From: Tubiluchus corallicola
Taxonomy: Eukaryota; Animalia; Priapulida
NCBI GenBank assembly: GCA_030141605.1
Contig: JAQGDQ010000212.1
Coordinates: 186,001 to 250,000, forward strand
Length of the DNA stretch: 64,000 nucleotides
Direction: 5' to 3'
Shown here: positions 1,100 through 62,150 of the stretch, one piece after another
How the letters are laid out: each line of letters opens with the position of its first letter
Position numbering within the stretch: the first letter of the stretch is position 1
Position numbers and translations under genes: made by a program
The notes under the pieces: model-generated
What the model saw: only the letters and a program-made list of their open reading frames with translations
Told to the model about the DNA's origin: nothing
Database searches by the model: none

Positions 1100-1830
1100 G
1101 ACAGTGTGGTTTCTTCCCAAACCGTAAACAATCTTGGAGTAGCTTTAACCGTTGACACTTTTTTTTCTTATAGCAAACCATTTAGCAAACTTGGTAGGTT
1201 GACATTATTGGGAATGTGGAAAATTGGAAAAATCAGTCAGTAAATAGTTTATTGAGGAACAACACAAAACAATATACAATACAATGTAGATAAAAAATCA
1301 CACATCACACAAAGCATGCCAACACTTTAGTATGATCGTCACAAGTATTGAAATAGCAAAAGAAACAGTAGAGGTTAAATAGTAAATAGTATTCACACAT
1401 TTACAAAAGCAATATAATTATAATAATGTGCTTTTGCTATCAATTGATTATGATTTTCTTCTTTTAAAACATTCTGTAATATAATTTGAAATTTTCAAAT
1501 TCACTTTCATTTCTATTCATCAGAAATATAAATTTTGCTTTTACCGTAAGATTTATAAAGTTTGGGAAAGTCTCTTTGACACGAGATAGCAGGCTTTGTC
1601 TGAAATCATAATAATAGTTACATTCAAGAATTGAATGATATTCGTCATCTTGATATATTTAGACATATTCTCAACCTCCGAACAACTGAAAAAATCGTAA
1701 ATGCTTTCGTAACATCCAAACTTGATTACTGCAATAGTTGCCTTTTTAGACTTGAAAACGAAAATCGTAAAAACCAACTAGTTCAGAATTCTGCTACTCG
1801 TCTCATTACCGAGACTAGCAAATATAATAA
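1100..1830 (+). mobile_element. Degenerate L2/CR1-clade LINE fragment (C-terminal part of RT ORF), interrupted
   Basis: ORF 1631..1924 contains IVNAFVTSKLDYCNS...QLVQNSATRLI, resembling the L2-type LVHAFVTSRLDYCNS...LQRVQNAAARL motif; a VNNLGV-like piece lies near 1120-1140. Confidence 0.65.
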
Positions 1831-1981
1831 TTTCTTCACCCCGTCCTTCTTGGCCCACCCATCTCTCACGGCCTTGCCAGTAACTAAGAGAAGCCATGTT
1901 TTATTTGTACTTAATTTACACTGATAACATATAATTAATTATGGACAACTGATGACAATAATTAGTACGTCATTGTTTCAG

Positions 1982-2065: not shown

Positions 2066-2385
2066 GTAAGAACTGTTTCATACATGTTTCTTTTCAGTAC
2101 AGTGTAAACAGGCCTCTCAGAAGTTTTCAGGAGTTCAAAAGTTTATTTATATTCAAACTGCATCATTACAATAACAAGATAGTAGCCTAGAAAGAAAGCT
2201 AGTTGCCATTACACACAATGACTTTTGATGCATACAGGTTGATCTAAAAAGCATAGCTTGTCAGGCCAACCTGTACGTGAAATAAAAAAAGAAAAAAAGA
2301 AATAATAAATGAAATATTGTTAGGTTCCAGTGTATTGTAGGTTTTTCTTGATAGTATAGTGCAAAGTTAACAGAAAAGTCCATAA

Positions 2386-2988
2386 AGCAAAACTGGACCT
2401 ACTGTTAAACTGTAGGTTAAAACAATCTACTCTTTAAAATATTGAAAGGAAACACTATTTTTTCAAAATTGACTTCTTACGTGAAAGAATTATCATCACA
2501 CAAACACAATTTCGCGTTCGTGCCACTAGTTTTTTGCTGTTACGTGCCTTTCGCCATTTGCTGGTTAGACGGGCACTAGCGTCTACATTTCGGAAATGTA
2601 TTGCACAAAGAAACAGGTGCTGTACCTCTCAGTATAGATGTGTTAGTTTGTGACGAACTACACATATTTGACAGCTGATGCGTGAGAATAGCGGTAAATT
2701 TGAAATTTGAATTTTTATCTTAAAACTTGCCTGGTTTGAGTACTACACACTGAATATCTTACAGTAGCACTGTACTTCAATTTACGCAATATGCAACACG
2801 CTCGTTGAATATTACTGCTGTTGAAAATTATGTTCATTGCGATGTCATCAACAGCTGGGTTCGCTCGCCTTTAATTAATCTATTATTTAATTATCAGATG
2901 CGCCTTTACAGCATTAATTGTGTTAAAATGTACGCTGTTTGTTGGACTTGAAAATGGGGTAGTAAGTGAAAAATTATCCTGTCCTCTT
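2386..2988 (+). mobile_element. Non-autonomous DNA transposon, family A (Kolobok-like ends)
   Basis: Homologous to 7230-7370, about 28540-29088, 58945-59383 and 61579-62022; ends resemble AG(G/C)AAAAC(T/A)GGA...TCCTGTTTTCCT in TTAA-like context. Confidence 0.7.
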
Positions 2989-7126: not shown

Positions 7127-7229
7127 CAACTGACACTAGAAACATGCTTCTTGTAGGTTTTTGAACAAAATGCCACACAGTTACATATGGTAATTAAGAT
7201 CAATTAAGAATAAGTTTAAGATACAGCTG

Positions 7230-7370
7230 TTGAACGTGTGCAGTTCGTCGCAAACTAACACATCTGAACTGAGAGGTACAGCACCTGTTTTTGTGCAGTC
7301 CATTTCCAAAACGCACGCGCTAGTGCGCGTCTGACTAGCGAAAGGCAAAATGCATGTAACAGCATACTTT
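7230..7370 (-). mobile_element. Fragment of family A DNA transposon
   Basis: Reverse complement of about 2540-2680 (GTTCGTCGCAAACTAACACATCTG...GAGAGGTACAGCACCTGTTT). Confidence 0.65.
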
Positions 7371-10155: not shown

Positions 10156-10611
10156 CTACAAAATTAAACCGGGAGCAGAAAATATGATAGAGCATATTGC
10201 CACCACGGTATAGACTGAAAAAACAAGAAGACATATCCTGTCCACGACCATGGCTGCAAACTTCCAATCATTATTCAGCTCTCTCTCGTCCTCCTCCTCT
10301 TTCAGATGGGAGGTTATCACTTTTAGCTCGTGTAAAATGTCCGCAAGTTCACTTCTGTTTCCACCGAGAACAGAACGATTTTCACCAAGTGGAAGTTTAC
10401 TATAACCACCGGGAGGTGGCGTGTTATTGGACGACCGGAAGTCGTCGTCTGCGTCAAGAACATTGGCTAGTAGGCTGCGAGAACAACGCTCTTTCAGTTC
10501 TATTTCTTTCAACTTTGAGTTAACAGCGAATTGTTTTAACCTGTCTTCGTTGCTCACTTGACGTTTCATGCAAAGTATTCTGGGAAGCCAACGGAGAAAC
10601 ACCGTTCGCAT
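10156..10611 (-). CDS. CHRNA7: nAChR alpha7-like subunit, exon 10 (M3-M4 loop, TM4, stop)
   Basis: ttcAG acceptor at 10613-10612; encodes KERCSRSLLANVLDADDDFR (motif of the invertebrate alpha7 group, Dalpha5-7) and DWKFAAMVVDRICLLVF; TAG at 10158-10156. Confidence 0.95.
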   Translation of the reverse strand: MRTVFLRWLPRILCMKRQVSNEDRLKQFAVNSKLKEIELKERCSRSLLANVLDADDDFRSSNNTPPPGGYSKLPLGENRSVLGGNRSELADILHELKVITSHLKEEEDERELNNDWKFAAMVVDRICLLVFSVYTVVAICSIIFSAPGLIL

Positions 10612-11736: not shown

Positions 11737-11846
11737 CCAGTTTGGCATTCGGTATAAATCTGTAGTCCTATGATGCATGTTTAAGACGCAAACAGTCAAG
11801 GTCACAGAAAGAGCACACATTATCATAATACATGCAAAGTACTTCC
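11737..11846 (-). CDS. CHRNA7: nAChR alpha7-like exon 9 (TM3: GKYFACIMIMCALSVTLTVCVLNMHHRTTDLYRMPNW)
   Basis: 110 nt, ttcAG/GTaagt boundaries, phase 1/0; absent from the ORF track and translated by hand. Confidence 0.93.
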
Positions 11847-12717: not shown

Positions 12718-12804
12718 CTATGAGTGGCACAGCGTCAGAGGTAGCTGGCATTGTTTCTGCTACCAGTAAAAGGAAGACCATGAGAGATAAGAGAATCGTT
12801 ACAC
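12718..12804 (-). CDS. CHRNA7: nAChR alpha7-like exon 8 (TM2: CVTILLSLMVFLLLVAETMPATSDAVPLI)
   Basis: 87 nt, cAG/GTatgc boundaries, phase 1/1, the same size as alpha7 exon 8. Confidence 0.95.
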
Positions 12805-13330: not shown

Positions 13331-13525
13331 ATAACGTGAGTTTTTCTCCTGAATCTGGCGGTAGTAGGAACACGAGTAGTGTCATGGTTGAAATAAGAAA
13401 GCACGGTATCAATAAATTAAACAAGTAGTACAAAACTCTTCGTCGTATCACAACAGTAAATGTGACGTCGAAATAGGGCTCGGGGCAGCAGGTATACAAA
13501 AATTTATTCCTTTTGCCTGGAACAC
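13331..13525 (-). CDS. CHRNA7: nAChR alpha7-like exon 7 (loop C YTCC, TM1, GEK)
   Basis: 195 nt; [65 protein letters not shown]; vicinal cysteines define an alpha subunit. Confidence 0.97.
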
Positions 13526-15441: not shown

Positions 15442-15560
15442 CAATCAAATCCCATTCTCCGTTTTCAATATAATCGCTGATGTCGCCACCATCTGGCATG
15501 GATAACCGAAGATCAAGTCCTGTACCATCGTACGTCCAGGAGCCAAACTTCATCAAGCAC
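15442..15560 (-). CDS. CHRNA7: nAChR alpha7-like exon 6 ([39 protein letters not shown])
   Basis: 119 nt, tttAG/GTacga boundaries, loop B WTYDG, second Cys-loop cysteine. Confidence 0.95.
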
Positions 15561-15894: not shown

Positions 15895-16032
15895 CGTTGT
15901 TCATCGAATGGATACCAGGCGATGTTTATCTTACAAGTACTCCTGAAGATACCAGGAGGAATGTAACTACAAGCACCATCGTGGGAAAGCACAACATTGG
16001 AGTGGTAAGTGCCATCAAACCGTTCGTCTGCA
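15895..16032 (-). CDS. CHRNA7: nAChR alpha7-like exon 5 (ADERFDGTYHSNVVLSHDGACSYIPPGIFRSTCKINIAWYPFDEQR)
   Basis: 138 nt, tttAG/GTaaac boundaries, loop E and Cys-loop C-x13-C continued into exon 6. Confidence 0.95.
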
Positions 16033-18135: not shown

Positions 18136-18245
18136 CTGTTATACATGAGTACGTCTGGCCTCCATATTTTATCAGGCGGAATACGTATTGTAGTGATGTT
18201 ACCGTATTCTGATGGTTCCCAGTGTAAATTCTGATCCGTCCACGC
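18136..18245 (-). CDS. CHRNA7: nAChR alpha7-like exon 4 ([37 protein letters not shown])
   Basis: 110 nt, gtAG/GTaaaa boundaries, loop [10 protein letters not shown]. Confidence 0.95.
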
Positions 18246-20145: not shown

Positions 20146-20190
20146 GACATCTAGCCAAACATTTGTCGATATTATCTGGTTCTTCTCATC
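20146..20190 (-). CDS. CHRNA7: nAChR alpha7-like alternative exon 3b (DEKNQIISTNVWLDV)
   Basis: 45 nt, aactAG/GTaagt boundaries, phase 0/0, paralogous to exon 3a, loop D tryptophan retained. Confidence 0.9.
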
Positions 20191-21063: not shown

Positions 21064-21108
21064 CAAATTTAACCAAATATTTGTCGCCATATTTTGATTC
21101 TTTTCGTC
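21064..21108 (-). CDS. CHRNA7: nAChR alpha7-like alternative exon 3a (DEKNQNMATNIWLNL)
   Basis: 45 nt, caacAG/GTgagt boundaries, phase 0/0, loop D. Confidence 0.92.
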
Positions 21109-21935: not shown

Positions 21936-22172
21936 CAAGAAATCCCGCAATGAAGAAATGAAAAGTGCACTAACCCTAGTGAATCACTATCATCAACATT
22001 GAATGTTAAAATGAAAGAAAAAATTAAATACACATTTTTGGATTTTATAATTATAATACAGTTAGGTCCCCCTAATTAGGCTCCGATTTCATCACTTCTT
22101 TAGAGTATCGAAACGAGGTATTGTTATGCTGTATGGAAGTGGCGAATAAATAGGTATTATTTAAGATCTCCN

Positions 22173-22199
22173 NNNNNNNNNNNNNNNNNNNNNNNNNNN
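22173..22199. other. Assembly gap (run of N)
   Basis: 27 n characters. Confidence 1.
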
Positions 22200-25333: not shown

Positions 25334-25473
25334 CACGTCTATAATCTGCTGTAGAGTTATTCCAAAGTTGACTACCACAGGATCGCTCTCGTTTAGAACT
25401 GGTCGCTCTAGAACTTCATAGTCTTTCATTATCCTTCTGATCAGACGTCTGGCATCACGACTTTGATATGTAA
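25334..25473 (-). CDS. CHRNA7: nAChR alpha7-like exon 2 (TYQSRDARRLIRRIMKDYEVLERPVLNESDPVVVNFGITLQQIIDV)
   Basis: 140 nt, ttcAG/GTatga boundaries, phase 1/0, N-terminal helix and LERPV motif. Confidence 0.95.
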
Positions 25474-25639
25474 CTGAAATTAAAAAAAACAAAATCAGTA
25501 TGCAGGAAGTAAGTCAGTGAGTGAGTGAGCAAGTCAGGTCGACGTTAGTCCAGCCAGCGGGCGCAGTATTCAAAATACACGTAACTACTTAATGAGGATG
25601 ATTGTGAAGGAAAGGCTTCTGAGAAGAGACAAGGTAGAA

Positions 25640-26580
<941 letters not shown>

Positions 26581-27099
26581 AATTAAGCAGGGAAGCAAAC
26601 AAGCAACTAAGTAAGCAAACAAGGTTACACCAAGTAAATAAAATCTACATAGGGTCGGTGTTTATAATACGGAAAATAATACCTTTGGCACTACCTAATA
26701 CCCAAAATCACATATTATAATTACATATGACACATGTTTATAAATTTAGGTGTTACATTATACATCTGATGGACAATGCAAAAAACAAAGTAAAGACACG
26801 TAAGAGTCAGAAATTTACTTTTTGTGAAAATTAGAACAAAATTGTCAAACATGTGAATAAAAACGAAAATTTGCTCCTCATGCTGTAAAGTATTCGTAAT
26901 ATTGGCTTTTACAGTCGATTTTGGGAAAATTAATTCCGCTAAAATTATTTTATGCTGGTACAATCTAAGAATTAGAACGAGTCCAAGAAATACTAGTTTT
27001 TAAGTAGAGTTCTTAATAAGTAGTAGTAGTAGATCAAAGATGAAGGTCTGACTCATCTAAAATGATACTTCAACAAATCTGTTTCCCGTTAAGAGACAA

Positions 27100-27950
27100 C
27101 GTCCCAAGCAAAGTGACAAATCCTTGATAGCAAGTTCTAGGTCAAGACCCTTACTGTGCAACTCAAGCACTTAATTCTTGAGAGTAAGAGAGTTTTCAAA
27201 TACTATTACCTGGACAGTAAGTCACAAATCCATGACCATAGGTTCTGTGTCAAGAACTAAATATCTAATGTAAGATCTGCACACAGTTAATTCCCAAATC
27301 CTTAACTATAAGCTTAAACATCAAGAACCCACAATTCTTGACGACTGGTCCCATGTCAAGTACTAAATCCTTGATGTAAATCCCAGCTCACAGTCGAATC
27401 CAAAATCCTTAACTGTAAGTTTAAATGTCAAGTTTCAAATCCTTGGCTATAGGTCCATGTCAAGTCTCAAATCCTTGACTATAGGTCCATGTCAAGTCTC
27501 AAATCCTTGACTATAGGTCCATGTCAAGTCTCAAATCCTTGACTATAGGTCCATGTCAAGTCTCAAATCCTCGACTATAGGTCCATGTCTAGTCTCAAAT
27601 CCTTAACTATAGGTTCATATCAAGTCTCAAATCCTTGACTATAGGTCCATGTCAAGTCTCAAATCCTTGACTATAGGTCCATGTCAAGTCTCAAATCCTT
27701 GACTATAGGACCATGTCAAGTCTCAAATCCTTGACTATAGGTCCATGTCAAGTCTCAAATCCTTGAGTATAGGTCCATGTCAAGTCTCAAATCCTCGACT
27801 ATAGGTCCATGTCAAGTCTCAAATCCTCGACTATAGGACCATGTCAAGTAATAAATCACTAATGTAAGTCTCACTCCACAGTTAATTCACAAAGCCTTTA
27901 CAGTAAATTTCAATGTCAAGTCCTAAATCTTTGACAGTTACTGTAAATTC
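27100..27950. repeat. 32-bp minisatellite (about 13 conserved copies 27430-27850, degenerate flanks)
   Basis: Unit CTATAGGTCCATGTCAAGTCTCAAATCCTTGA. Confidence 0.92.
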
Positions 27951-28539
27951 CTCCAAGTCGAATTTTAACTCACTCAGCCTCCAGACCTGCTTCATAAACA
28001 AATGTAAATTTCATAATTTTATAAGCAATGGCTGCAGGATGACACGGAAATGAATTTGTTTCTGAATTCAGAAAATAATTTTAATGCACGCGAATCGCCT
28101 GGTCGTCAAATGCATTAAAAATTTATTTTGTCGTTAAAAATTGCGTTTATTGACAAACGAGAAACAGGAAAAAATCAGACATGAATTAATAATATTCAGT
28201 AACGCTGAATTGCGCGTGTGCGTGGGCTCATGGGCAAGTACTTGTGAAAGTTAATAAGAAAATTTATACGTCTAGCAGCTGTTAATCCAAAGAAAATACT
28301 TAATACCCTGGGTTATATTGCATATTGTTACTGGAAATCATCGAGAAAATGGGAAAATAGATTTTCCTATTATAACGTTATCACTTATGAGTTCTAGTAT
28401 ACGAGCTAAGACAATTTAGTCTTTGACACGCTAACAACTTTGGTCGTTCATTTAAGGCGTTGTCCATATAATTGTAATATTTAAACGAAAATTAACTGAT
28501 TTCTTATTCCATTGTGAAATACGAAAAAGTATACATGGT

Positions 28540-29088
28540 AACTCGTTTAGTAATGCCAAAGCGTTTCTGATAATTAACATAAGAGGTGAAAAACTTACTT
28601 AATGGTCTGTGAACCCAGTCAGTAAATGACGTCACAAGTGAACATAATTTTTAACAGCACCAGTATTCTACGAGCGTGTTGCACGTGTTTGCGAAAGTGG
28701 AAGTGGAAGCATAATGTTAGCATACGACATTCAGTGTGATATACAAAGATTGGCAAATTTTAAGTGCAAAATTTAAATTCGACGTTTACTGCTGTGCTCT
28801 CGAACGTGCGCACTACGTCACAACCGAATAACTGTGAACTAACAAGTACAGTACCGGTTTTTGGGCAACGCGTTTTGCGCGATGCAGGTGCTAGTGCCCA
28901 TCTATCTAACGAATGGCGAAATGCATGTAGTAGCGACGAACTAGTGGCTTGAACGTGAAATTGTGTTTGTGTGGTGGTAATAATTCTTTCATGTAAGTCA
29001 TTCTTAAAAAAACATTATGTTCTGTTTCAGTAATTTACAGGGCAGATGGGTTTTGAGCTACAGTATAAGACAGAGTTCGGTTTTCCGT
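28540..29088 (-). mobile_element. Family A DNA transposon copy
   Basis: Reverse-complement similarity to 2386-2988 (GAAATTGTGTTTGTGTGG...TAATTCTTTCA); boundaries approximate. Confidence 0.6.
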
Positions 29089-29208
29089 AACTATGAGAAA
29101 CAACCCTAGGGATTAATATCAATAATTACAATATTGATATTATATCAATACAATATCAATACAATAATTTCACATAACTACAACCTCTGTAGTCAGTAAT
29201 TCTAATAA

Positions 29209-29428
29209 AGTGGCGTTTATGTTTATATGCGCATGCGCATGCATTTGGGGGGTTAGGCATACGATAAAATCGGTTTATATTGGTTTTAATGCACCTGTTT
29301 ATGCAGCCTGTGGGTGATTCTTTTTCTGTAGTTATTTCCTAATGATTTTTCCGCTTGCTGTTCAACAGTTGGAAAACGCGTCCGCATCCGCATCCGCATT
29401 TCCAAACGCATGCTACATAAACACCACT
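29209..29428. mobile_element. Short MITE (Harbinger-like) upstream of the stomatin gene
   Basis: TIR AGTGGCGTTTATGT / ACATAAACACCACT flanked by TAA and TTA. Confidence 0.6.
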
Positions 29429-29519
29429 TTACAGTTATAGCAAAACAACCAAGTAACAACAGAGATAATACAAGAAAGAGAAACGTCTGTGTAGTAGAAC
29501 TAATACGCCGTGATCACCT

Positions 29520-29960
29520 TGTGGCTGGCGCAGTACAGGAAGTATCATGTTGCCCACAGGAAGTCTCCTCTGCTTACTAACTATTGGCTAATAAGTTGTA
29601 TTAATGTTCAGTGTTACCGTTATTATGTGGGTGGCCAATCAATCGATATTTGAAGCAGTTACCAGGAAACAGTTATTTAGCGTGGTCAAGGTGCAGGTTT
29701 TAGGCTGACAACCACATCTGTCACGAGGACACTGATCATCATTACACTATTGCAAAGAAGCTCATTATTGCATGTGTGAACATAGAATATTGTATTTAAA
29801 TTAAAACAGTAACGTCATCTATAAACGTATTGGGTATTTGTTAATCAAACAGCATGCACTGACGTCGTTTGTTTATGTCAGCACTCGTGGTTTACTTGTA
29901 TTAGCCAATACGATCTTTGCACCCAAGCCAAGGTAATCTACAGCGGACTGTATAAGTAAT
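29520..29960 (+). promoter_or_regulatory. Candidate proximal promoter of the stomatin gene
   Basis: Two CAGGAAGT (ETS-like) motifs near 29537 and 29557, CCAAT motifs near 29584 and 29636, CTATAAA near 29819, TGACGT near 29860; motif inspection only. Confidence 0.3.
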
Positions 29961-30090
29961 AGGTGAGACGCATACACGCATATATTGAGTTACGGTGATA
30001 CGGAAAGACAACGTCACACAAGTACAGTAGTTATTACTGCTATACACAGTTATATATACAGTTATAAGTGCAAGGCAGCAAAGGGACAAT

Positions 30091-31014
30091 ATGGCGAATG
30101 CGAAACACGAGGAGACAATTGAAATGTACGGGGCAGGACCTCAGAGTGACGCAGAAGAAGGTATTGGTTGCTGTGGGTTGATCATAACTGGATTGTCCTA
30201 CTTGTTCATCCTTATCACGTTTCCAATTTCCATCTGGTTCTGTTTCAAGATGGTACAGGAGTACGAAAGAGCCGTCATTTTCCGATTGGGGCGCCTGCTT
30301 CCGGGAGGCGCCAAGGGTCCGGGATTGTTCTTCATAGTACCGTGCACTGATGAGTTTGTCAGGGTGGACTTGAGGACAGTCTCTTTCGACGTGCCACCGC
30401 AGGAGATATTGTCCAAAGATTCCGTAACCATTGCAGTTGATGCTGTTGTCTACTACCGGATCAAGAATCCAACTATATCCATTGTGAATGTCAATGATGC
30501 TGACCGGTCCACACGTCTTTTGGCACAGACGACATTGAGGAACGTCCTGGGAACGAAGAATATGTCAGAGTTATTGTCAGATAGAGAGCACATCAGTTCG
30601 ACAATGCAAAGTATCTTGGACGAGGCAACCGATCCCTGGGGTATCTTGGTCGAAAGAGTCGAAATCAAAGACGTGAAGTTGCCCATGCAGCTACAGCGTG
30701 CCATGGCTGCAGAGGCAGAAGCAGCAAGAGAAGCCAGAGCCAAGGTCATTGCGGCTGAAGGTGAACAACGGGCTTCGAGAGCTCTGAAAGAAGCTGCTGA
30801 CGTCATCGCCTCGTCACCGGCAGCCCTACAGCTGCGCTACCTGCAGACGCTTAACACGATCTCTGCTGAGAAGAATTCCACTATTGTATTTCCCATACCT
30901 ATTGAAATGATGAGGATGTACAACAATCCGTCCGGTGGTGGAGAAACGAGGCGGGAGAAAATTCCATGGAAGGAGCAAGAAGCAGCAACAGCTCCAATTG
31001 GATCAGATTTGTAG
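30091..31014 (+). CDS. STOM: Stomatin / band 7 (MEC-2-like) SPFH-domain protein, 307 aa, intronless
   Basis: Hydrophobic hairpin with conserved proline (ITFPISIW), VQEYERAVIFRLGRL, VDLRTVSFDVPPQEILSKDSVT, QRAMAAEAEAAREARAKVIAAEGE, ALQLRYLQTL; a single uninterrupted ORF with ATG and TAG. Confidence 0.97.
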   Translation: MANAKHEETIEMYGAGPQSDAEEGIGCCGLIITGLSYLFILITFPISIWFCFKMVQEYERAVIFRLGRLLPGGAKGPGLFFIVPCTDEFVRVDLRTVSFDVPPQEILSKDSVTIAVDAVVYYRIKNPTISIVNVNDADRSTRLLAQTTLRNVLGTKNMSELLSDREHISSTMQSILDEATDPWGILVERVEIKDVKLPMQLQRAMAAEAEAAREARAKVIAAEGEQRASRALKEAADVIASSPAALQLRYLQTLNTISAEKNSTIVFPIPIEMMRMYNNPSGGGETRREKIPWKEQEAATAPIGSDL

Positions 31015-31027
31015 AAGGTCCCTGCTA

Positions 31028-31831
31028 CGCCCATTTCACACTGAAAACGCAAGAGAAGTGACGCGCGGAATTGCTGTTAGAAAAACAGCAAATTTTAAAA
31101 AATCCGCTTTTTTTCGCAAAAACTGGTGCAGCAAGAAATTTCATTTCACACAGAAACCGCGTTGCTTTTTACGCACGACCAGCTAGCTCCTAGTTACTCG
31201 GGTCGCAAGCTTGTGGCTGTTAATCGCCATCATGGACATGGGAAGTGGTCCTGACAAACCACTGGCATAGCAGTGTTTAGTTTTTTTGCTGGGCTACTGC
31301 TGCGTTTAACCTGTCTTGAGGGCAAATTTCTACCTGCCCGATGTCTACAATAAACGTAGTGAGCATATGATGATGATGATAATGATGATGATGACAGCTA
31401 GAATGACGCAACGTTTTTACTGAGCGCTTATTATTAATTATTACGCCTTTATTAATTACCGTCGTTATTTGGCGCACCAAATTAACGAGTCAAAACAGCA
31501 CCTCGTAACGTTGTATGGCTAGTTAAGAGACTCAAAACTTATAATTTTATGCTGAATTAAGTTAATTGCTGCTTGGCGAACAAGAAAGAGGTAACTGAAC
31601 AGTTAAACCTTAACGTAAAATCCGCGAGGAATTCTCGCTAAAATAGAACATGCGGTATTTAGCGGGCGCTTTGTCTCACGAGGAGGACGCATAGCTGGCG
31701 GTGGAGGGCCTCACCAGGGATTCTAGAGGAAAAATCTTCTTGAGGCGTCTGTATGAAGTACGCCCTAGATTGCAACTTGAGAAAATACCGCCAGGATGTT
31801 TTTGCCGCGCGTCCTCAGTGTGAAATGGGCC
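31028..31831. mobile_element. Harbinger-like MITE of about 800 bp inserted 13 nt after the stomatin stop codon
   Basis: TIR CGCCCATTTCACACTGAAAACGC / GCGTCCTCAGTGTGAAATGGGCC; flanks CTA and TAA. Confidence 0.75.
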
Positions 31832-31967
31832 TAATGGTGCCTTTAGTGATACCGCCTGTGAACTTTTAGATACTTTGTCCAATTTTTCAAAAGATATTGA
31901 AAGAAAACTGTTAACTGACGGAGTATTTTAATCTTTTTAATCTACGTAATATTTTTCCTCTTTACCT

Positions 31968-32155
<188 letters not shown>

Positions 32156-33186
32156 TTTTTTTCAATTACGTCTTTTATCTTTTAATAGCTCATTAATTAT
32201 GTTGATAATTCTTATTATTAATGATACAGGTATGTAGCGTCTTTATTATATTATAACTAAAAACAAAAAACATAACAAATTTTATTTGTATTTAGCGAGG
32301 CTCAAATTTTTATAAAGTAAGGAAATTTTGGGTACTTATTTCAAGATAAGTCGTGTTCATGATATTTTAGTATATGCAGTGTTAAATGAAATTTATACTG
32401 TCAAGTTCAGCATGTGGAAAAAACGTGTTTGTGTGTCATTTGTGTTGGTGGTACGTGGTCATCAAGCATTAATGTTCTTGAATATGAACGATTATCTTAT
32501 ATAAATTATATAAATTATAATTATATAAATTTGTAATTATATTGTAATTATATAAATTATACGTAGTAATATATAAGTAGAGACATGGTAGAAATACGAG
32601 AGTGAGTGAGTGAGGGAGGGAGGGAGGGAGGGTATAGTATTAGCTTATACTGTACTAGCAAAATTATCATCTCATGATTTATTAGTCGAAAAAGTTAGGT
32701 GGGTTCGTATCCCAAGGGATAGGAGAGTATCCCTGTGATAAGGTTGGGCTCGTATCCCTAGGGATAGCAGAATATGCCCAAGTGATAAAGTAAATTTTCA
32801 AAACGAAGATCATTGCCATTATTTTTTTGTCATTGTCCATTTGCAGTGTGTTAGAAGGAAATATAGGACTGATCATACTTTTAGTTTTTCATCTATAAGG
32901 CATTTGTTTGAAGTTGACATTAATACGTGGTGCCTGTTCATTAAACATTCTTTTTGTGTAATTAATGGAAAACGAAGAGTACGTGGTGTGGACAATTATT
33001 ATATATTATTAATGTGTAGGCGTCATCCACATTTTTATTATTGTTTTTTATTTTGTCTTATAATTTTAATAATTGTAAATAAATTTAAATAATAATATTA
33101 CGCAACGTTTTGCTTTTTTGCTATTGGTGTTACAAGTCTTTATGAACAATTTATTATATCATAGTATTGCCCAAACAATAGTGAAT

Positions 33187-33540
33187 CAAGCATGCCCTCA
33201 TGAAAAAGGGTGGAGTCTCATACGTCTCACACAGCCTGTAATCTTGGGAGGGGTAGGATTTGAACAGTGGACTCCAAGCATGCCCTCATAAAAAAAGGGT
33301 GAAGTCTCATACGTCTCACACAGCCTGTAATATTGAGGGGCACGATTTGAACAGTGGACTCCAAGCATGCCCTCATAAAAAAGGGTGGAGTCTCATACGT
33401 CTCACACAGCCTGTAATATTGAGGGGTATGATTTGAACAGTGGACTCCAAGCATGCCCTCATAAAAAAGGGTGGAGTCTCCTACGTCTCACACAGCCTGT
33501 AATCTTGGGAGGGGTAGGATTTGAACAGTGGACTCCAAGA
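33187..33540. repeat. About 87-bp tandem repeat, 4 copies
   Basis: GCATGCCCTCA starts at 33190, 33278, 33365 and 33451. Confidence 0.9.
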
Positions 33541-33907
33541 AGTGGAGACACTCCAACACGTCTTGCAGATGTCTCACAAGCTTCTCTGTTGAATACTGAT
33601 CAATGACATGTTTTTGGATCATCTGAGCGACCACTTTGTCTTTCGGCATAGCACCAATGTGTTTGACGTGGTTGAGATCCTGTGAATTTCCAGATTCGAA
33701 CGAAAAAAAATAAAAATCCCAGCGTTATCAGGTCGCTGCTCCGATAATACACTTCAAAACTCTGCTAGACACTTGAGGCTTCCATATCAAACATTGAGGG
33801 CACGATGGATTCTCTTTTGTTTCAGCTAAACTTTGACGTGACAATTTTTTCTCTACTGTTACTCGTCATTTCTGTATCCCCTAGCAGAGGTTATGTACCA
33901 TTCTTTA

Positions 33908-46920: not shown

Positions 46921-47006
46921 ATAGCTACAGCCCAGAATAGAACCACGCACCTTACACTGTGGTAGGTCCTTTTTTTCTAATAGACGAAATTTCTTGACTT
47001 TTTCAC

Positions 47007-47082
47007 CACCAAAGCAACCAGATGCTAAAACTGATAATAAAATTAAAGAAATTCTTAAGAAATGATAAGAATAAACATTCAT
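47007..47082 (-). CDS. CHRNA7: Probable nAChR exon 1, signal peptide MNVYSYHFLRISLILLSVLASGCFG (upstream in-frame ATG at 47106)
   Basis: Signal-peptide-like segment ending at phase-1 donor G|GTgaaa, matching the phase-1 acceptor of exon 2 (G+TT = Val); best candidate seen upstream, but the donor is only moderate. Confidence 0.55.
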
Positions 47083-48029
47083 CTTCGCTTTTTTTTGATC
47101 TGACATCCACCTCCCCTTCTCCGCAGCTTCTGTACCAATCTCATATCAAATGTTCTATTTATACAAGTGAACCCAGTGAAAATGAAGTTATGAAACGACT
47201 CGACTGGAAGAAAAACATAAAACGGCAAAAACGTCGAATCGTCATCTCGAGTGACCCGGCATTATCGGAATTGTTTAGAATAGAACCTCTTCTTCGACGC
47301 TCCGAATCGATTTAAATCCGGATTGAAACTTATCAGCTGCAAAATCACAACGTTATAATCTCGTCAGCGTCAGTCGGATTCAGCAGCGACGAATAGTTGC
47401 TTTTAATAATAACAGGCGGCGATACAATCGCTTTAAGTGAGCACATAACTCACAGTTAGCAACGCAAACTGTCCATAATGGTTGACAACTACGATTACAG
47501 ATCTTCCATTATCATATATATTTTGCACAAGGTTTAGCAATATTGTGTCTGGGAAGAAATAGAAATGTTCAATACGGCGAGAAACGTCACCAGTTTAGTT
47601 GTGTTATCTTACGGAATAACTGCTTTTGAATTCGGTTTTTCCCTGGGCTTCTTTTCTGTGGAATTCTTTACCAGAAATGCTTTTCCGGCAAGTTACAGCT
47701 TCAACCGATTAAAGAAGAACATCAACAGATTACCTCAAGTCCACAGCAAATTAATTATAGCAATTATTTTCTAGACATTCATTTTCATTCTTAACCTTTC
47801 TTCTGTAGTCTTTACTCTATAATGCCATTTGGCTTGTTTGGGGGTCTACAAAAATGATTTATGTATTCAATGTAATGCTAAATGCAGAATGGAGATCTTT
47901 TAGTAAGCAAACTGCACAGCTGTTGACAGATGAATTTAAAGGCACCAGAATGTAAGTAAACCTTGACAGTCTAGTTGAATACGTTGCATGAATACCAGCC
48001 AGCAATAATCCATAAAATTACCACGTGAC

Positions 48030-58760: not shown

Positions 58761-58944
58761 AATATCTCAGTCATTCATAGTATACATCCATCCAGCCATA
58801 AATAAAACCTCTAGAGCTGTGTTGCTCACCCATTCAAATGCTGACCATCCTTGGTGTCGCTTGACTTCAGGAACTAAATTAAGCATACCATAACGCTGGT
58901 TATCAGGCAATTGTTGTTTTTTTCTAATTTCGTTAGAAAATTGA

Positions 58945-59383
58945 AGGAAAACAGGATGATTTTTCATATACAACCCCATTTTGGAGTACAAAAAAGAACA
59001 CGTTTTGATACAATTAATACTGCAAAAGCTTTCTGATGCCAAACAAAGCTTTATGATGACATCACAAACTAGCATAACTCTCAACAGCAAAAATATTCCA
59101 TCGGTGCTTGCAAAAGCGAAAATTGTGTGTAGTTCGTTACAAACTAACACATCTGACTTGAGAGGTAGAGCACCCGTTATTTGTGCAACGCGTTTGCGAA
59201 ATGTAGACGCTAATGCCCATCTAACTAGCAAATGGCGAAAAGCATGTAACAGCGAATGTGAAATTGTGTTCGTGTGGTAATAATTCTTTCACGTAATACA
59301 TTTTTGAGAAATGGTATGTTTCCTTTCAATATTTTAGGGTAGATTTGCTGGAGTTATAGTTTAAGATTGGGTCCAGTTTTTCA
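58945..59383 (-). mobile_element. Family A DNA transposon copy
   Basis: Near-identical reverse complement of 61579-62022. Confidence 0.8.
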
Positions 59384-59904
59384 TTTACTTAATTTAGTAC
59401 GAGGCATGAGTGTGGTACCCCGTGAGAGAGGCTGATGATGATAATTACTGTCTGCTAAACTAGGATAATCAAAGGCTTACAGTAGCTGCGCCTGGGTGTT
59501 TAAATATTTATAAAAATCGTACTGCTTCGCTCCTAAATTAGATTACTATACTCAAAGCAAATGTAATTAAGCCTTTTCACAGTTTTGCTGTGCTCACGCG
59601 CAGTTACTGTAGGTCAAAGGTTAAGTGTACATAAGGTTAGCTGGTTGGTCAGTTTCAATTAGATAGTTGATTGATTAGTTGTTTGGTTTGTTGGTGTGTC
59701 GGTCAGTTTATCAGTCGGTTGGTTGAGGTTGGTTCTTTGCTAGCTGAATAGCTGATTGGTTCTTTGGTTGAGCGGTTGATTGGTTAGATAGTTAACTGGT
59801 TAGATACCTGTTATCAGTTGTTTGGATGGTGTTGATGGACTGGCGGTTGACTTGTTAGTTCGTTGGTAATTTGCTGGCTAAAATACTGGTTTGTTTTTGG
59901 TTTG

Positions 59905-60555
<651 letters not shown>

Positions 60556-61578
60556 ACATGCAGACGAAATTGCTCAAAACAGTTTTCTATTTTCTGTTAT
60601 TAGTGTGAAACTCAAAACTCAATATTATTTTCCTTCCTTGGATTTCAATGAATGTAAACCAGCAACACGCCGTGCCACCATGTCACTTGCAGGAAACTTG
60701 TTAACTGTTAAATTAATAAATCATTTCAGTCCAATAATTCCATCGTCAAAGCCGATTCGCTGCGTTATCTGTAACGAAAGATGCGGCAGCTGCTGCTGCT
60801 CTCGCACTGTTGCTGATGAGAGGAGTGGGATGAGGATGAAATGATACTAAAAATCGACACAGTAGGTGCGATGATGACTGATGAGATACCCGAAGCTTTA
60901 TCACTGTCAAAACAAGAAGCTTGGTAGAATTTTTACATTATTGTAAAGATTAGAAGTTTATAATTACTAACGTAGTTATCCTACTTACGTATATATAAAT
61001 ATATATATAACGTATATACATACATATAAACAATTACTATAATTGTGCAGTTGCTGTAGGTCAAAGGTTATGTGTACCATAGCAACGCATCTTAACTACA
61101 ACCGCCACGTGACGTGTGTGTAAGGCAAAGCCGTCTACCGCAACAGTTCAGGAACTTTTCGTGGAGTTTACGTAATTATGCATTAGTTTATCTCTCTTTC
61201 TCTCACTCTCTCTCTCTCTCTCTCTCTCTCTCGCTTTCGCTCTCGTTTCTTCCTTTTTCTTGTTCTCCCGTTTACTTCTTTTTTCTCCTTTTTCCTTTCT
61301 TTTCTTTCTTCTACTCTAACTGTCTCTCTCTCCCTCTCTCTTGTTGTCTTTCTTTCTCCAATTCTCCCCTTGTTTCTCTCTTCTTCTCTCACCCTGTTTT
61401 ATTTTTTCCCCTTTTGTTTCTTCTACTTTCTCTCTCCCTCTCCCTCCATCTCTCTCTCGTTCTCTCACTCTCCCTGCATTAACATGGCAGCTCAATATCC
61501 ATTAATTAATCACTATGATAGGTCAGCTTACATCTACAAACTAGACTTACCTTAATAGTGAAGCATCTAAGAATTTAA

Positions 61579-62022
61579 AGCAAAAACGGGAGCCAATCTT
61601 AAATGTAGATCAAAACAATCTACACTTTAAAATACTGAAAGGAAACACTACTTTTTCAAAATTGACTTACGTGAAAGAATTATTACCACACAAACACAAT
61701 TTCACATTCGCGCCACTAGTTCTTCGCTGTTACATGCTTTTCGCCATTCGCTAGTTAGATGGGCATTAGCGTCTGCATTTCGCAAACGCGTTGCACAAAT
61801 AACGGGTGCTCTACCTATCAAGTCAGATGTGTTAGTTTGTGACAAACTACACACAATTTTCGCTTTTGCAAACACCGATGGAATATTTTTGCTGTTGAGA
61901 GTTATGCTAGTTTGTGATGTCATCAATTGTTTGGCATCAGAAAGCTTTTGCAGTATTAATTGTATCAAAACTTGTTTGTACTCCAAAATGGGGTTGTATA
62001 TGAAAAATCATCCTGTTTTCCT
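61579..62022 (+). mobile_element. Family A DNA transposon copy
   Basis: TTAA|AGCAAAAACGGGA ... TCCTGTTTTCCT; homologous to 2386-2988. Confidence 0.8.
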
Positions 62023-62097
62023 TCAATTTTCTAACGAAATTAAAAAACAACAACAATGGTGTGATAACCAGCGTTGTGGTATGTTTATGTTAGCTAA

Positions 62098-62150
62098 CTA
62101 AGTTAAGCAACACCAGGGACGGTCAGCATTTGAATGGGTGAGCAACACAG
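62098..62150 (+). pseudogene. 5S rRNA-derived fragment (internal control region); related copies at 58817-58870 (-) and about 7450-7505 (+)
   Basis: AAGTTAAGCAACACCAGGGACGGTCAGCATTTGAATGGGTGA aligns by eye with 5S box A-IE-box C (AAGYTAAGCA...GGTTAGTACTTGGATGGGWGA). Confidence 0.5.

What the first reader, a model, noticed from the sequence alone, without database searches (positions are those of the whole stretch)
30091..31014. Intronless stomatin gene nested antisense in the first intron of a nicotinic receptor gene
Seen: a complete 307-aa stomatin ORF with no introns, on the opposite strand between nAChR exon 2 (25473) and the probable exon 1 (47007). Established: metazoan stomatin/mec-2 genes are normally multi-exon, and stomatin-family proteins modulate ion channels (MEC-2 with MEC-4/MEC-10, STOM/STOML3 with ASICs and Piezo, podocin with TRPC6). 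Inference: an old, intact retrogene (no poly-A or TSD visible) embedded in a channel gene. It may be a co-regulated channel plus SPFH auxiliary-subunit pair for a Cys-loop receptor, or the two may be expressed exclusively through transcriptional interference. Nesting depends on the exon 1 call; otherwise the genes are a divergent pair.
Basis: partly seen in the sequence, partly recalled or inferred. Interest (0 to 1): 0.8.

Follow-up and report, generated by a model that had tools for sequence, protein, structure and literature searches.

The report
Intronless stomatin beside worm acetylcholine receptor
In what is likely a priapulid worm, an intact, intron-free gene for the membrane scaffold protein stomatin lies backwards just upstream of exon 2 of an acetylcholine-receptor gene, likely inside its long first intron and likely as a kept mRNA copy, which is a common arrangement, and I found no sign that the two proteins work together.

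Summary
The 307-aa stomatin ORF (30091-31014, +) is real, intronless and under purifying selection. It groups with Priapulus caudatus stomatin. On the - strand, exons 2-10 of an alpha7/alpha6-like nicotinic receptor are intact.

The proposed exon 1 (donor 47007) is not supported. A relative's full-length protein (P0121, 441/460 identical) and a likely spliced contig (X2) both end exon 1 with LIVVLLP(Q). Its last 30 letters match nowhere in the window above chance, and 47007 scores 8/30.

No good exon 1 lies between exon 2 and the stomatin either. Nesting therefore still holds at about 80%, with exon 1 probably beyond 64000.

The closest P. caudatus relatives of the two genes lie on different scaffolds. 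Four paper searches found no stomatin-nicotinic receptor link. Antisense nesting in long first introns is common, and this scan already noted another intronless nested gene in this genome.

Verdict: an ordinary nested, probably retroposed stomatin. A functional pairing is unlikely (about 6%). In passing, the receptor has a duplicated exon 3, as arthropod alpha6 does.

The parts
30091..31014 (+). Stomatin gene, single coding exon, 307 aa: N-tail, Cys28, hydrophobic hairpin with Pro45, SPFH domain 54-225, coiled coil, oligomerisation motif near 262-270, extended C-tail
29820..29825 (+). TATAAA, 270 nt before the stomatin ATG; possible core promoter (consensus match only)
31349..31354 (+). AATAAA, 335 nt after the stop; possible poly-A signal (consensus match only)
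25334..25473 (-). nAChR exon 2 (140 nt, phase-1 start); 46 of 46 codons identical in protein to P0121; contig of run X2 leaves the genome at its 5' end
21064..21108 (-). nAChR exon 3a (45 nt), duplicate of exon 3, AG/GT intact; not seen in any transcript here
20146..20190 (-). nAChR exon 3b (45 nt); the form present in P0121 (15 of 15 aa)
18136..18245 (-). nAChR exon 4 (110 nt)
15895..16032 (-). nAChR exon 5 (138 nt; first Cys of the Cys-loop)
15442..15560 (-). nAChR exon 6 (119 nt; second Cys-loop Cys, loop B)
13331..13525 (-). nAChR exon 7 (195 nt; vicinal Cys-Cys of loop C, TM1, GEK ring)
12718..12804 (-). nAChR exon 8 (87 nt; TM2)
11737..11846 (-). nAChR exon 9 (110 nt; TM3)
10156..10611 (-). 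nAChR exon 10 (456 nt; cytoplasmic loop, TM4, stop)
46951..47082 (-). Donors at 47019, 47010, 47007, 46956 (phase 1) and 46951 (phase 0). Not the orthologue of the relatives' exon 1; possibly an alternative first exon, another gene's first exon, or chance
47201..47600 (.). Most CpG-rich 400-nt window of 210 scored (27 CpG, median 11), directly upstream of the 47082 ATG and not part of a repeat found within the window
29518..29548 (-). Best rival exon-1 end between exon 2 and the stomatin: 10 codons ending PQ before a good phase-1 donor; no hydrophobic core, similarity within chance

Best explanation
The window holds an intact, intron-free stomatin gene on the strand opposite a nicotinic receptor gene; it is likely a reverse-transcribed mRNA copy that likely landed in the receptor's long first intron and is likely kept as an ordinary stomatin, with no special tie to the receptor. 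Shown: the unbroken ORF, the conserved stomatin residues, purifying selection on the protein, receptor exons 2-10, and the absence of a recognisable copy of the relatives' exon 1 anywhere in the window. Inferred: the true exon 1 lies beyond 64000, making intron 1 longer than 38.5 kb; the antisense insert is tolerated because its splice and poly-A signals are invisible to the host transcript; and it uses its own promoter just upstream of 30091. Inferred from human stomatin: the protein would anchor by a palmitoylated hairpin on the cytoplasmic leaflet, oligomerise, and organise cholesterol-rich patches that tune channels and transporters in general.
For: ORF and family. All six residues that human stomatin needs for plasma-membrane targeting (Pro47, Cys87, Asp89, Arg97, Lys198, Pro270) are kept, as is Cys30 (PMC5456319 section 16). 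Of 175 columns at least 90% conserved in 105 homologues, the protein departs at 13, and 12 of those are conservative, against 31% expected from random substitution (p about 7e-6). It is sister to P. caudatus P0016 with support 97 and branch lengths 0.15 vs 0.17. Exon 1: P0121 and run X2 share an exon-1 end; the best 30-letter match upstream of exon 2 is 17/30, and the opposite-orientation control reaches 19/30; the gapped best score of 24 is at the bottom of 30 shuffled motifs (24-29.5). None of 40 ATG-to-donor candidates starting in 25474-31100 passes the donor plus hydrophobicity filter. No other gene reaches a Pfam cut-off among 149 ORFs upstream of exon 2. P0016 and P0122 lie on scaffolds of 179,879 and 1,029,334 bp. 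About 17% of human and 12% of mouse genes host nested genes, often in the first and largest intron, with a slight antisense bias (bioRxiv 2023.05.02.539096, headings and section 6).
Against: No parent gene was seen, and no poly-A or TSD remains, so retroposition is unproven. Exon 1 beyond 64000 is inferred from absence; an orthologous exon only 70-75% identical would be missed 20-7% of the time. An intron over 38.5 kb is nine times the next longest (4.2 kb). The 47082 ORF has the most hydrophobic signal-like stretch of the candidates that pass the filter and the window's top CpG peak, which this reading leaves unexplained. P0121 and X2 could come from a recent paralogue with its own exon 1. 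Only 120 of 7986 stomatin hits were listed, so another P. caudatus stomatin inside P0122's intron is not excluded.
Confidence: 0.6

Rival explanations
1. The 47082 exon is a real first exon of the receptor, either an alternative to the relatives' exon 1 or a replacement for it. The stomatin is then nested in a 21.5-kb intron, though the donor would more likely be 46956 or 47019 than 47007.
For: One of 4 distinct donors passing the filter among 264 minus-strand candidates, and the most hydrophobic of them (2.86). Top CpG window directly upstream. The 47019 form has the same 21-codon length as P0121's exon 1, and the 46956 form ends in LPQ in the same register.
Against: Two donors pass the same filter on the control strand. 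Matches to the relatives' exon end are 8-13 of 30 nt and score -12 to 3 in protein, where 129 arthropod pairs of at least 93% mature identity have a median of 25 and 4.7% score 3 or less (pairs not independent). The 47019 donor is weak (-3.0). The 46956 form would add about 20 charged residues before the mature start. No relative among 1.84 billion representatives, and Atlas hits under 0.9.
Confidence: 0.2
2. The genes are a head-to-head pair: exon 1 lies between exon 2 and the stomatin, and the two share an upstream region.
For: The site at 29518 ends in PQ before a good phase-1 donor and is the best end-anchored protein match among 79 minus-strand donors scoring 0.5 or more (score 12, 16 of 32 nt). 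It lies 570 nt from the stomatin ATG, and a 4-kb intron 1 would fit the gene's other introns.
Against: Its frame gives only 10 codons after the ATG with no hydrophobic core, an in-frame stop lies 13 codons upstream, and there is no T-rich acceptor ahead of it (read). Control-strand sites score up to 13 with any GT and up to 8 with a good donor. No candidate in the interval passes the signal-peptide filter.
Confidence: 0.12
3. The stomatin is kept here because it is a co-regulated auxiliary or scaffolding partner of this receptor, binding its cytoplasmic face and tuning its currents.
For: Stomatin represses ASIC3 through its dimer and a hydrophobic pocket (PMC3433786, abstract). [quoted passage not shown] The protein keeps the membrane-targeting residues.
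Against: The closest P. caudatus relatives are on different scaffolds although P0122's model includes both exon 1 and exon 2. No paper linking stomatin to a nicotinic receptor appeared. The known nested auxiliary genes (TipE cluster, eat-18) sit in genes other than their channel's. The tick alpha6 relative forms working homomers without the three ancillary proteins tested (PMC13578988, passages).
Confidence: 0.06
4. Opposing transcription makes the two genes mutually exclusive, so the stomatin's transcription regulates the receptor.
For: The geometry allows it if nested. In human, 657 antisense retrocopies correlate in expression with host transcripts, and premature host termination is described (PMC7290577, passages).
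Against: No expression data on either gene in this species. Different tissue expression would also follow from independent promoters with no interference.
Confidence: 0.12
5. The gene is not a retrocopy: it lost its introns in place, or an already intronless stomatin moved here as DNA.
For: No poly-A or TSD. The exon structure of P0016 and of any parent could not be read. The window holds dispersed repeats, one family in at least five copies.
Against: Complete loss of all coding introns is most simply one cDNA event (inference). The neighbouring receptor gene keeps all of its introns.
Confidence: 0.2

Closest known systems
Priapulus caudatus mechanosensory protein 2-like, XP_014672878.1 (P0016)
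   Same: 79.5% identical over 258 core columns; sister in both trees (97 FastTree; 91 SH-aLRT with a long-branch warning); shares 9 of 35 rare residues
   Different: Lies on another scaffold than the P. caudatus receptor orthologue P0122; shorter C-tail; exon structure not readable here
Human stomatin (PDB 9wkz, 9oh9; PMC5456319)
   Same: Gapless alignment over residues 21-275, E 3e-127; Cys30, Pro47, Cys87, Asp89, Arg97, Trp185, Lys198, Pro200, Pro245, Pro270 kept
   Different: Ile57 is Val; the tails are unrelated; the human gene has several exons (recalled, not checked)
Antisense retrocopies and nested genes in long first introns (bioRxiv 2023.05.02.539096; PMC7290577)
   Same: Single-exon gene, opposite strand, probably in the first and longest intron of a host
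   Different: Here neither the parent gene nor expression is known, and the junction is not shown
Insect TipE/TEH cluster nested in CG18675 (PMC3240667) and C. elegans eat-18 in lev-10 (PMC7173930)
   Same: Genes for channel-modulating membrane proteins placed inside an intron of another gene
   Different: In both, the host is not the channel they modulate; TipE expression correlates poorly with its host; both have shown auxiliary function, this gene has none shown
Arthropod nAChR alpha5/6/7 group and P. caudatus alpha7-like XP_014667766.1 (P0122)
   Same: Host gene's relative P0121 is 68% identical to P0122 and 56-61% to arthropod subunits; vicinal cysteines, GEK ring, 45-nt exon 3 in two copies
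   Different: No duplicated exon 8 was found; the two exon-3 copies cannot be assigned to insect 3a or 3b (9-12 of 15 aa to either)

Membership tests
Stomatin (SPFH/Band 7) | SPFH/Band_7 domain above the curated cut-off | tested here: met
   131.5 bits vs 23.6
Stomatin (SPFH/Band 7) | Hairpin membrane anchor with Pro47 and palmitoylation Cys30/Cys87 | tested here: met
   Pro45, Cys28, Cys85 at the aligned positions (residues from PMC5456319 section 16)
Stomatin (SPFH/Band 7) | Coiled coil and C-terminal oligomerisation/raft motif | tested here: met
   Both conserved in alignment A1 and against solved stomatin; by sequence only
Stomatin (SPFH/Band 7) | Oligomerises and binds cholesterol-rich membrane | not testable with these tools
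   Bench property; inferred from conserved residues
Retrogene | No introns in the coding region | tested here: met
Retrogene | Intron-bearing parent at another locus | not testable with these tools
   No genome held; exon structure of P0016 not readable
Retrogene | Poly-A remnant and target-site duplication (expected only in young copies) | tested here: not met
   uninformative for an old copy, so the gene is filed as a likely, not an established, retrogene
Retrogene | Intact frame under purifying selection | tested here: met
   12 of 13 departures conservative, p about 7e-6; branch no longer than P0016's
Retrogene | Transcribed | tested here: inconclusive
   No RNA holder listed; no evidence either way
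Nested (intronic) gene | Host exons on both sides, joined in a transcript | tested here: inconclusive
   Exons 2-10 lie on one side; exon 1 not located; no credible candidate between exon 2 and the stomatin
Auxiliary subunit of a Cys-loop receptor | Direct stable binding, change of channel properties, need in vivo (criteria as in PMC7173930) | not testable with these tools
   No data; no complex prediction was sent
Auxiliary subunit of a Cys-loop receptor | Conserved linkage as indirect support | tested here: not met
   P0016 and P0122 on different scaffolds; one outgroup, best hits only
nAChR alpha subunit, alpha7-like group (host) | Cys-loop, vicinal Cys-Cys in loop C, four TM, GEK cation ring | tested here: met
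   Exon translations; Pfam LBD and membrane hits; tree

The most novel reading that the evidence does not exclude
A priapulid lineage placed a stomatin retrocopy inside its alpha7-like receptor gene, under the receptor's neuronal enhancers, and now uses it as an SPFH scaffold that binds and tunes a Cys-loop receptor. That would be a stomatin-nicotinic receptor partnership that my four paper searches did not find, encoded as a host-and-guest locus.
Probability: 0.06. Interest if true: 0.7.

Novelty: new member of a known kind. Interest (0 to 1): 0.22.

Why it matters
As it most likely stands, this is one more conserved single-exon gene inside a long intron. It is useful for annotating a poorly known phylum and for counting retroposition there, and it warns that the receptor's exon 1 should not be annotated at 47007. 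If the unlikely pairing were true, it would extend stomatin's channel clients from DEG/ENaC-ASIC channels to Cys-loop receptors and give a simple oocyte test. The duplicated exon 3 may matter more: it would carry the arthropod alpha6 exon 3a/3b design outside arthropods, or show that it arose twice.

Tried and rejected
Whole-genome checks (parent gene, paralogues, sequence beyond 64000): no genome is held.

Expression: no RNA holder was listed for the stomatin stretch. Run X2 shares next to none of its words, which is no evidence either way. The stomatin stretch itself was never laid against reads. X1 covers intron DNA at about 99% and may be the window's source, so it is not independent.

Exon 1 at 47007, 47010 or 47019 as the orthologue of the relatives' exon 1: rejected. 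One search ranked 47082-47019 first of 900, but that script missed stops in the first ten codons and capped length at 40 codons; one search replaces it. in turn required 12 or more codons, so the 10-codon 29518 site was seen only. A 17/30 match overlapping the stomatin start codon (30071) has no donor and is at chance level.

Other N-terminal forms of the receptor: a search of shorter proteins gave 3 hits among 20 candidates, none close. Relatives of the 47082 ORF: 0 hits; Atlas scores under 0.9.

Synteny in metagenomes: 80 loci, best-segment identity 78% or less, none with a receptor gene nearby. 21 of 80 show split matches, but their taxa are unknown and many are transcripts, so they do not test the claim that animal stomatins are multi-exon.

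Other genes in the window: besides the stomatin and receptor exons, none of 149 + 85 ORFs of 50 aa or more reaches a Pfam cut-off.

The careful stomatin tree did not finish; a core-only FastTree of the window protein and 105 of the 120 hits was used (P0001-P0015, fused or duplicated forms, left out).

No complex prediction was sent: being neighbours is the only reason to suspect binding. A recalled stomatin-receptor genetic link (sto-6 with acr-2) found 0 papers and was dropped. Searches for stomatin gene structure gave nothing usable in their listings.

Full report
Observation. The + strand carries ATG 30091 to TAG 31014 in one unbroken frame of 307 aa. It hits Pfam Band_7 at 131.5 bits against a cut-off of 23.6 and aligns without gaps to solved human stomatin over residues 21-275 at E 3e-127. 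No A-tract of 8 or more lies within 29000-33700, and no flanking repeat fits a target-site duplication; a TATAAA at 29820 and an AATAAA at 31349 are consensus matches only. No whole genome is held.

The stomatin is conserved, not decaying. Against 105 homologues, 175 columns are at least 90% conserved. The window protein departs at 13 of them (median homologue 2, P0016 10, 4 of 105 as many or more; the set is biased to top-scoring molluscs). Twelve of the 13 are conservative, where random substitution gives 31% (p about 7e-6). Numbering from the gapless alignment (human = window + 2), all six residues that human stomatin needs to reach the plasma membrane and the palmitoylated Cys30 are kept (PMC5456319, abstract and section 16). 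The protein is sister to Priapulus caudatus P0016: support 97, branches 0.15 vs 0.17 in a core tree, and 91 with a long-branch warning in a full-length quick tree. This places the genome near priapulids and argues against contamination. GC3 is 0.54 against 200 of 460 codons (0.43) in the receptor exons, a weak hint of a different origin.

The host. Nine exon positions on the - strand, 25473 down to 10156, encode an alpha7/alpha6-like subunit with AG acceptors and GT donors throughout. An unnamed 487-aa protein from a 1663-nt contig (P0121), evidently a spliced transcript of a close relative, is identical at 441 of 460 exon residues. It is 68% identical to P. caudatus P0122 and groups with it. 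The exons sum to 1400 nt, leaving 21 codons plus one base for exon 1.

Exon 1. P0121's first 21 residues end in LIVVLLPQ. One contig of run X2 (RNA by guess; 244 nt) follows exon 2 with 7 differences in 96 letters and leaves the genome at the acceptor, and its loose end reads SLLIVVLLP. X2 differs from both the window and P0121 at one exon-2 residue, so two distinct relatives share this exon end. With gaps the best score is 24, within 30 shuffled motifs (24-29.5); a true orthologue at 80, 75 or 70% identity would score that low in 3, 7 or 20% of 300 simulations. Among 129 non-independent arthropod pairs of at least 93% mature identity, the last ten signal residues score a median of 25; the 47007 form scores -10. 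The 47007 donor (0.3) is weaker than all nine real donors (0.6-5.0), by a recalled frequency table. So the orthologous exon 1 is most likely not in the window.

Against that reading. The 47082 ORF is the most hydrophobic of the 4 donors that pass a donor and hydrophobicity filter among 264 minus-strand candidates (2 of 243 pass on the control strand). It sits under the most CpG-rich of 210 windows, outside any repeat found in the window, and it has a better phase-1 donor at 46956 after LPQ. It has no relatives. It could be an alternative first exon, another gene's start, or chance. A site at 29518, inside the refuting interval, ends in PQ before a good donor and scores 12, the best of 79 good minus-strand donors, but control sites reach 8-13 and it has no hydrophobic core. 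None of the 40 longer candidates starting in 25474-31100 passes the filter. Under either of the two likelier placements (beyond 64000, or 47082) the stomatin is nested; I put nesting at about 0.8. No further gene was found among 149 ORFs upstream and 85 downstream of exon 2.

Is the pair functional? P0122's model holds both exon 1 and exon 2 and lies on a 1,029,334-bp scaffold, while P0016 lies on one of 179,879 bp. The closest relatives are therefore not nested in P. caudatus, though another stomatin below the 120 listed of 7986 hits could be. Searches for a stomatin-nicotinic receptor link returned 9, 0, 6 and 2 papers. None of the listed titles or abstract openings reports one, and the passages of one review that I read (PMC10708093) do not either; most subscription journals are not covered. 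Nesting is common: 17% of human and 12% of mouse genes are hosts, often in the first and largest intron, with a slight antisense bias (bioRxiv 2023.05.02.539096; abstract, headings, section 6). Host and guest expression is usually inverse or uncorrelated, and the sodium-channel auxiliary TipE genes nest in an unrelated host (PMC3240667, passages). EAT-18, a true nicotinic auxiliary protein, starts in intron 1 of lev-10, not of its receptor gene (PMC7173930, passages). In favour, stomatin does repress ASIC3 (PMC3433786, abstract), and antisense retrocopies can correlate with or truncate hosts (PMC7290577, passages). No expression data exist for this locus.

Mechanism committed to (0.6). A stomatin mRNA was likely reverse-transcribed and inserted antisense into the receptor's long first intron, where its signals are invisible to the host transcript. 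It likely gained a local promoter and is kept as a general raft scaffold. Shown: frame, conservation, receptor exons, absence of the relatives' exon 1. Inferred: retroposition (the multi-exon state of animal stomatins is recalled), the site of exon 1, expression and function. Earlier scan notes call this genome priapulid-like and report an intronless CEP290 nested in PLPBP on another piece (unchecked); none concerns this stomatin.

Aside. Exon 3 is present twice (21108-21064 and 20190-20146; 45 nt each, 32 of 45 nt alike, both with good splice sites). P0121 uses the second. Insect alpha6 has mutually exclusive exons 3a/3b dated to before the insect radiation (PMC1919356, passages), and tick alpha6 has both (PMC13578988, passages). 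Fifteen residues cannot tell shared origin from convergence. No supplements were read.

Verdict. New member of a known kind; interest 0.22.

Noticed in passing
window 21064-21108 and 20146-20190 (-): Two intact 45-nt copies of receptor exon 3, 873 nt apart, likely mutually exclusive; the same exon is duplicated in insect and tick alpha6. The relative's transcript P0121 uses only the downstream copy. Shared origin or convergence is undecided.
   Followed up: partly
window 46951-47600 (-): A CpG peak followed by a short ORF with a signal-like stretch, two Lys-Lys pairs and good phase-0 and phase-1 donors. No homologue found. Could be an alternative receptor exon 1 or the start of a small secreted-peptide gene.
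   Followed up: partly
window 25380-25475, run X2: X2 was listed under the same species label, yet differs at 7 of 96 letters in exon 2, including one Ile-to-Val change. This suggests a sibling species or a recent paralogue of the receptor gene.
   Followed up: partly
window 2383-2940, 7224-7364, 28524-29084, 58817-59387, 61576-62150: A dispersed repeat family in at least five copies (69-87% alike), one ending about 1 kb upstream of the stomatin ATG; no Pfam hit.
   Followed up: no
window 1604-1921 (+): A frame that looks like the C-terminal end of a LINE reverse transcriptase (recalled motif); no Pfam hit.
   Followed up: partly
window 22172-22199: The only assembly gap (28 N) lies in receptor intron 2 between two microsatellites; there is no gap between exon 2 and 64000.
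   Followed up: no
window 30925-31011 (+): The stomatin has a C-terminal tail of about 30 residues beyond the conserved end, longer than in P. caudatus P0016; no function assigned.
   Followed up: no
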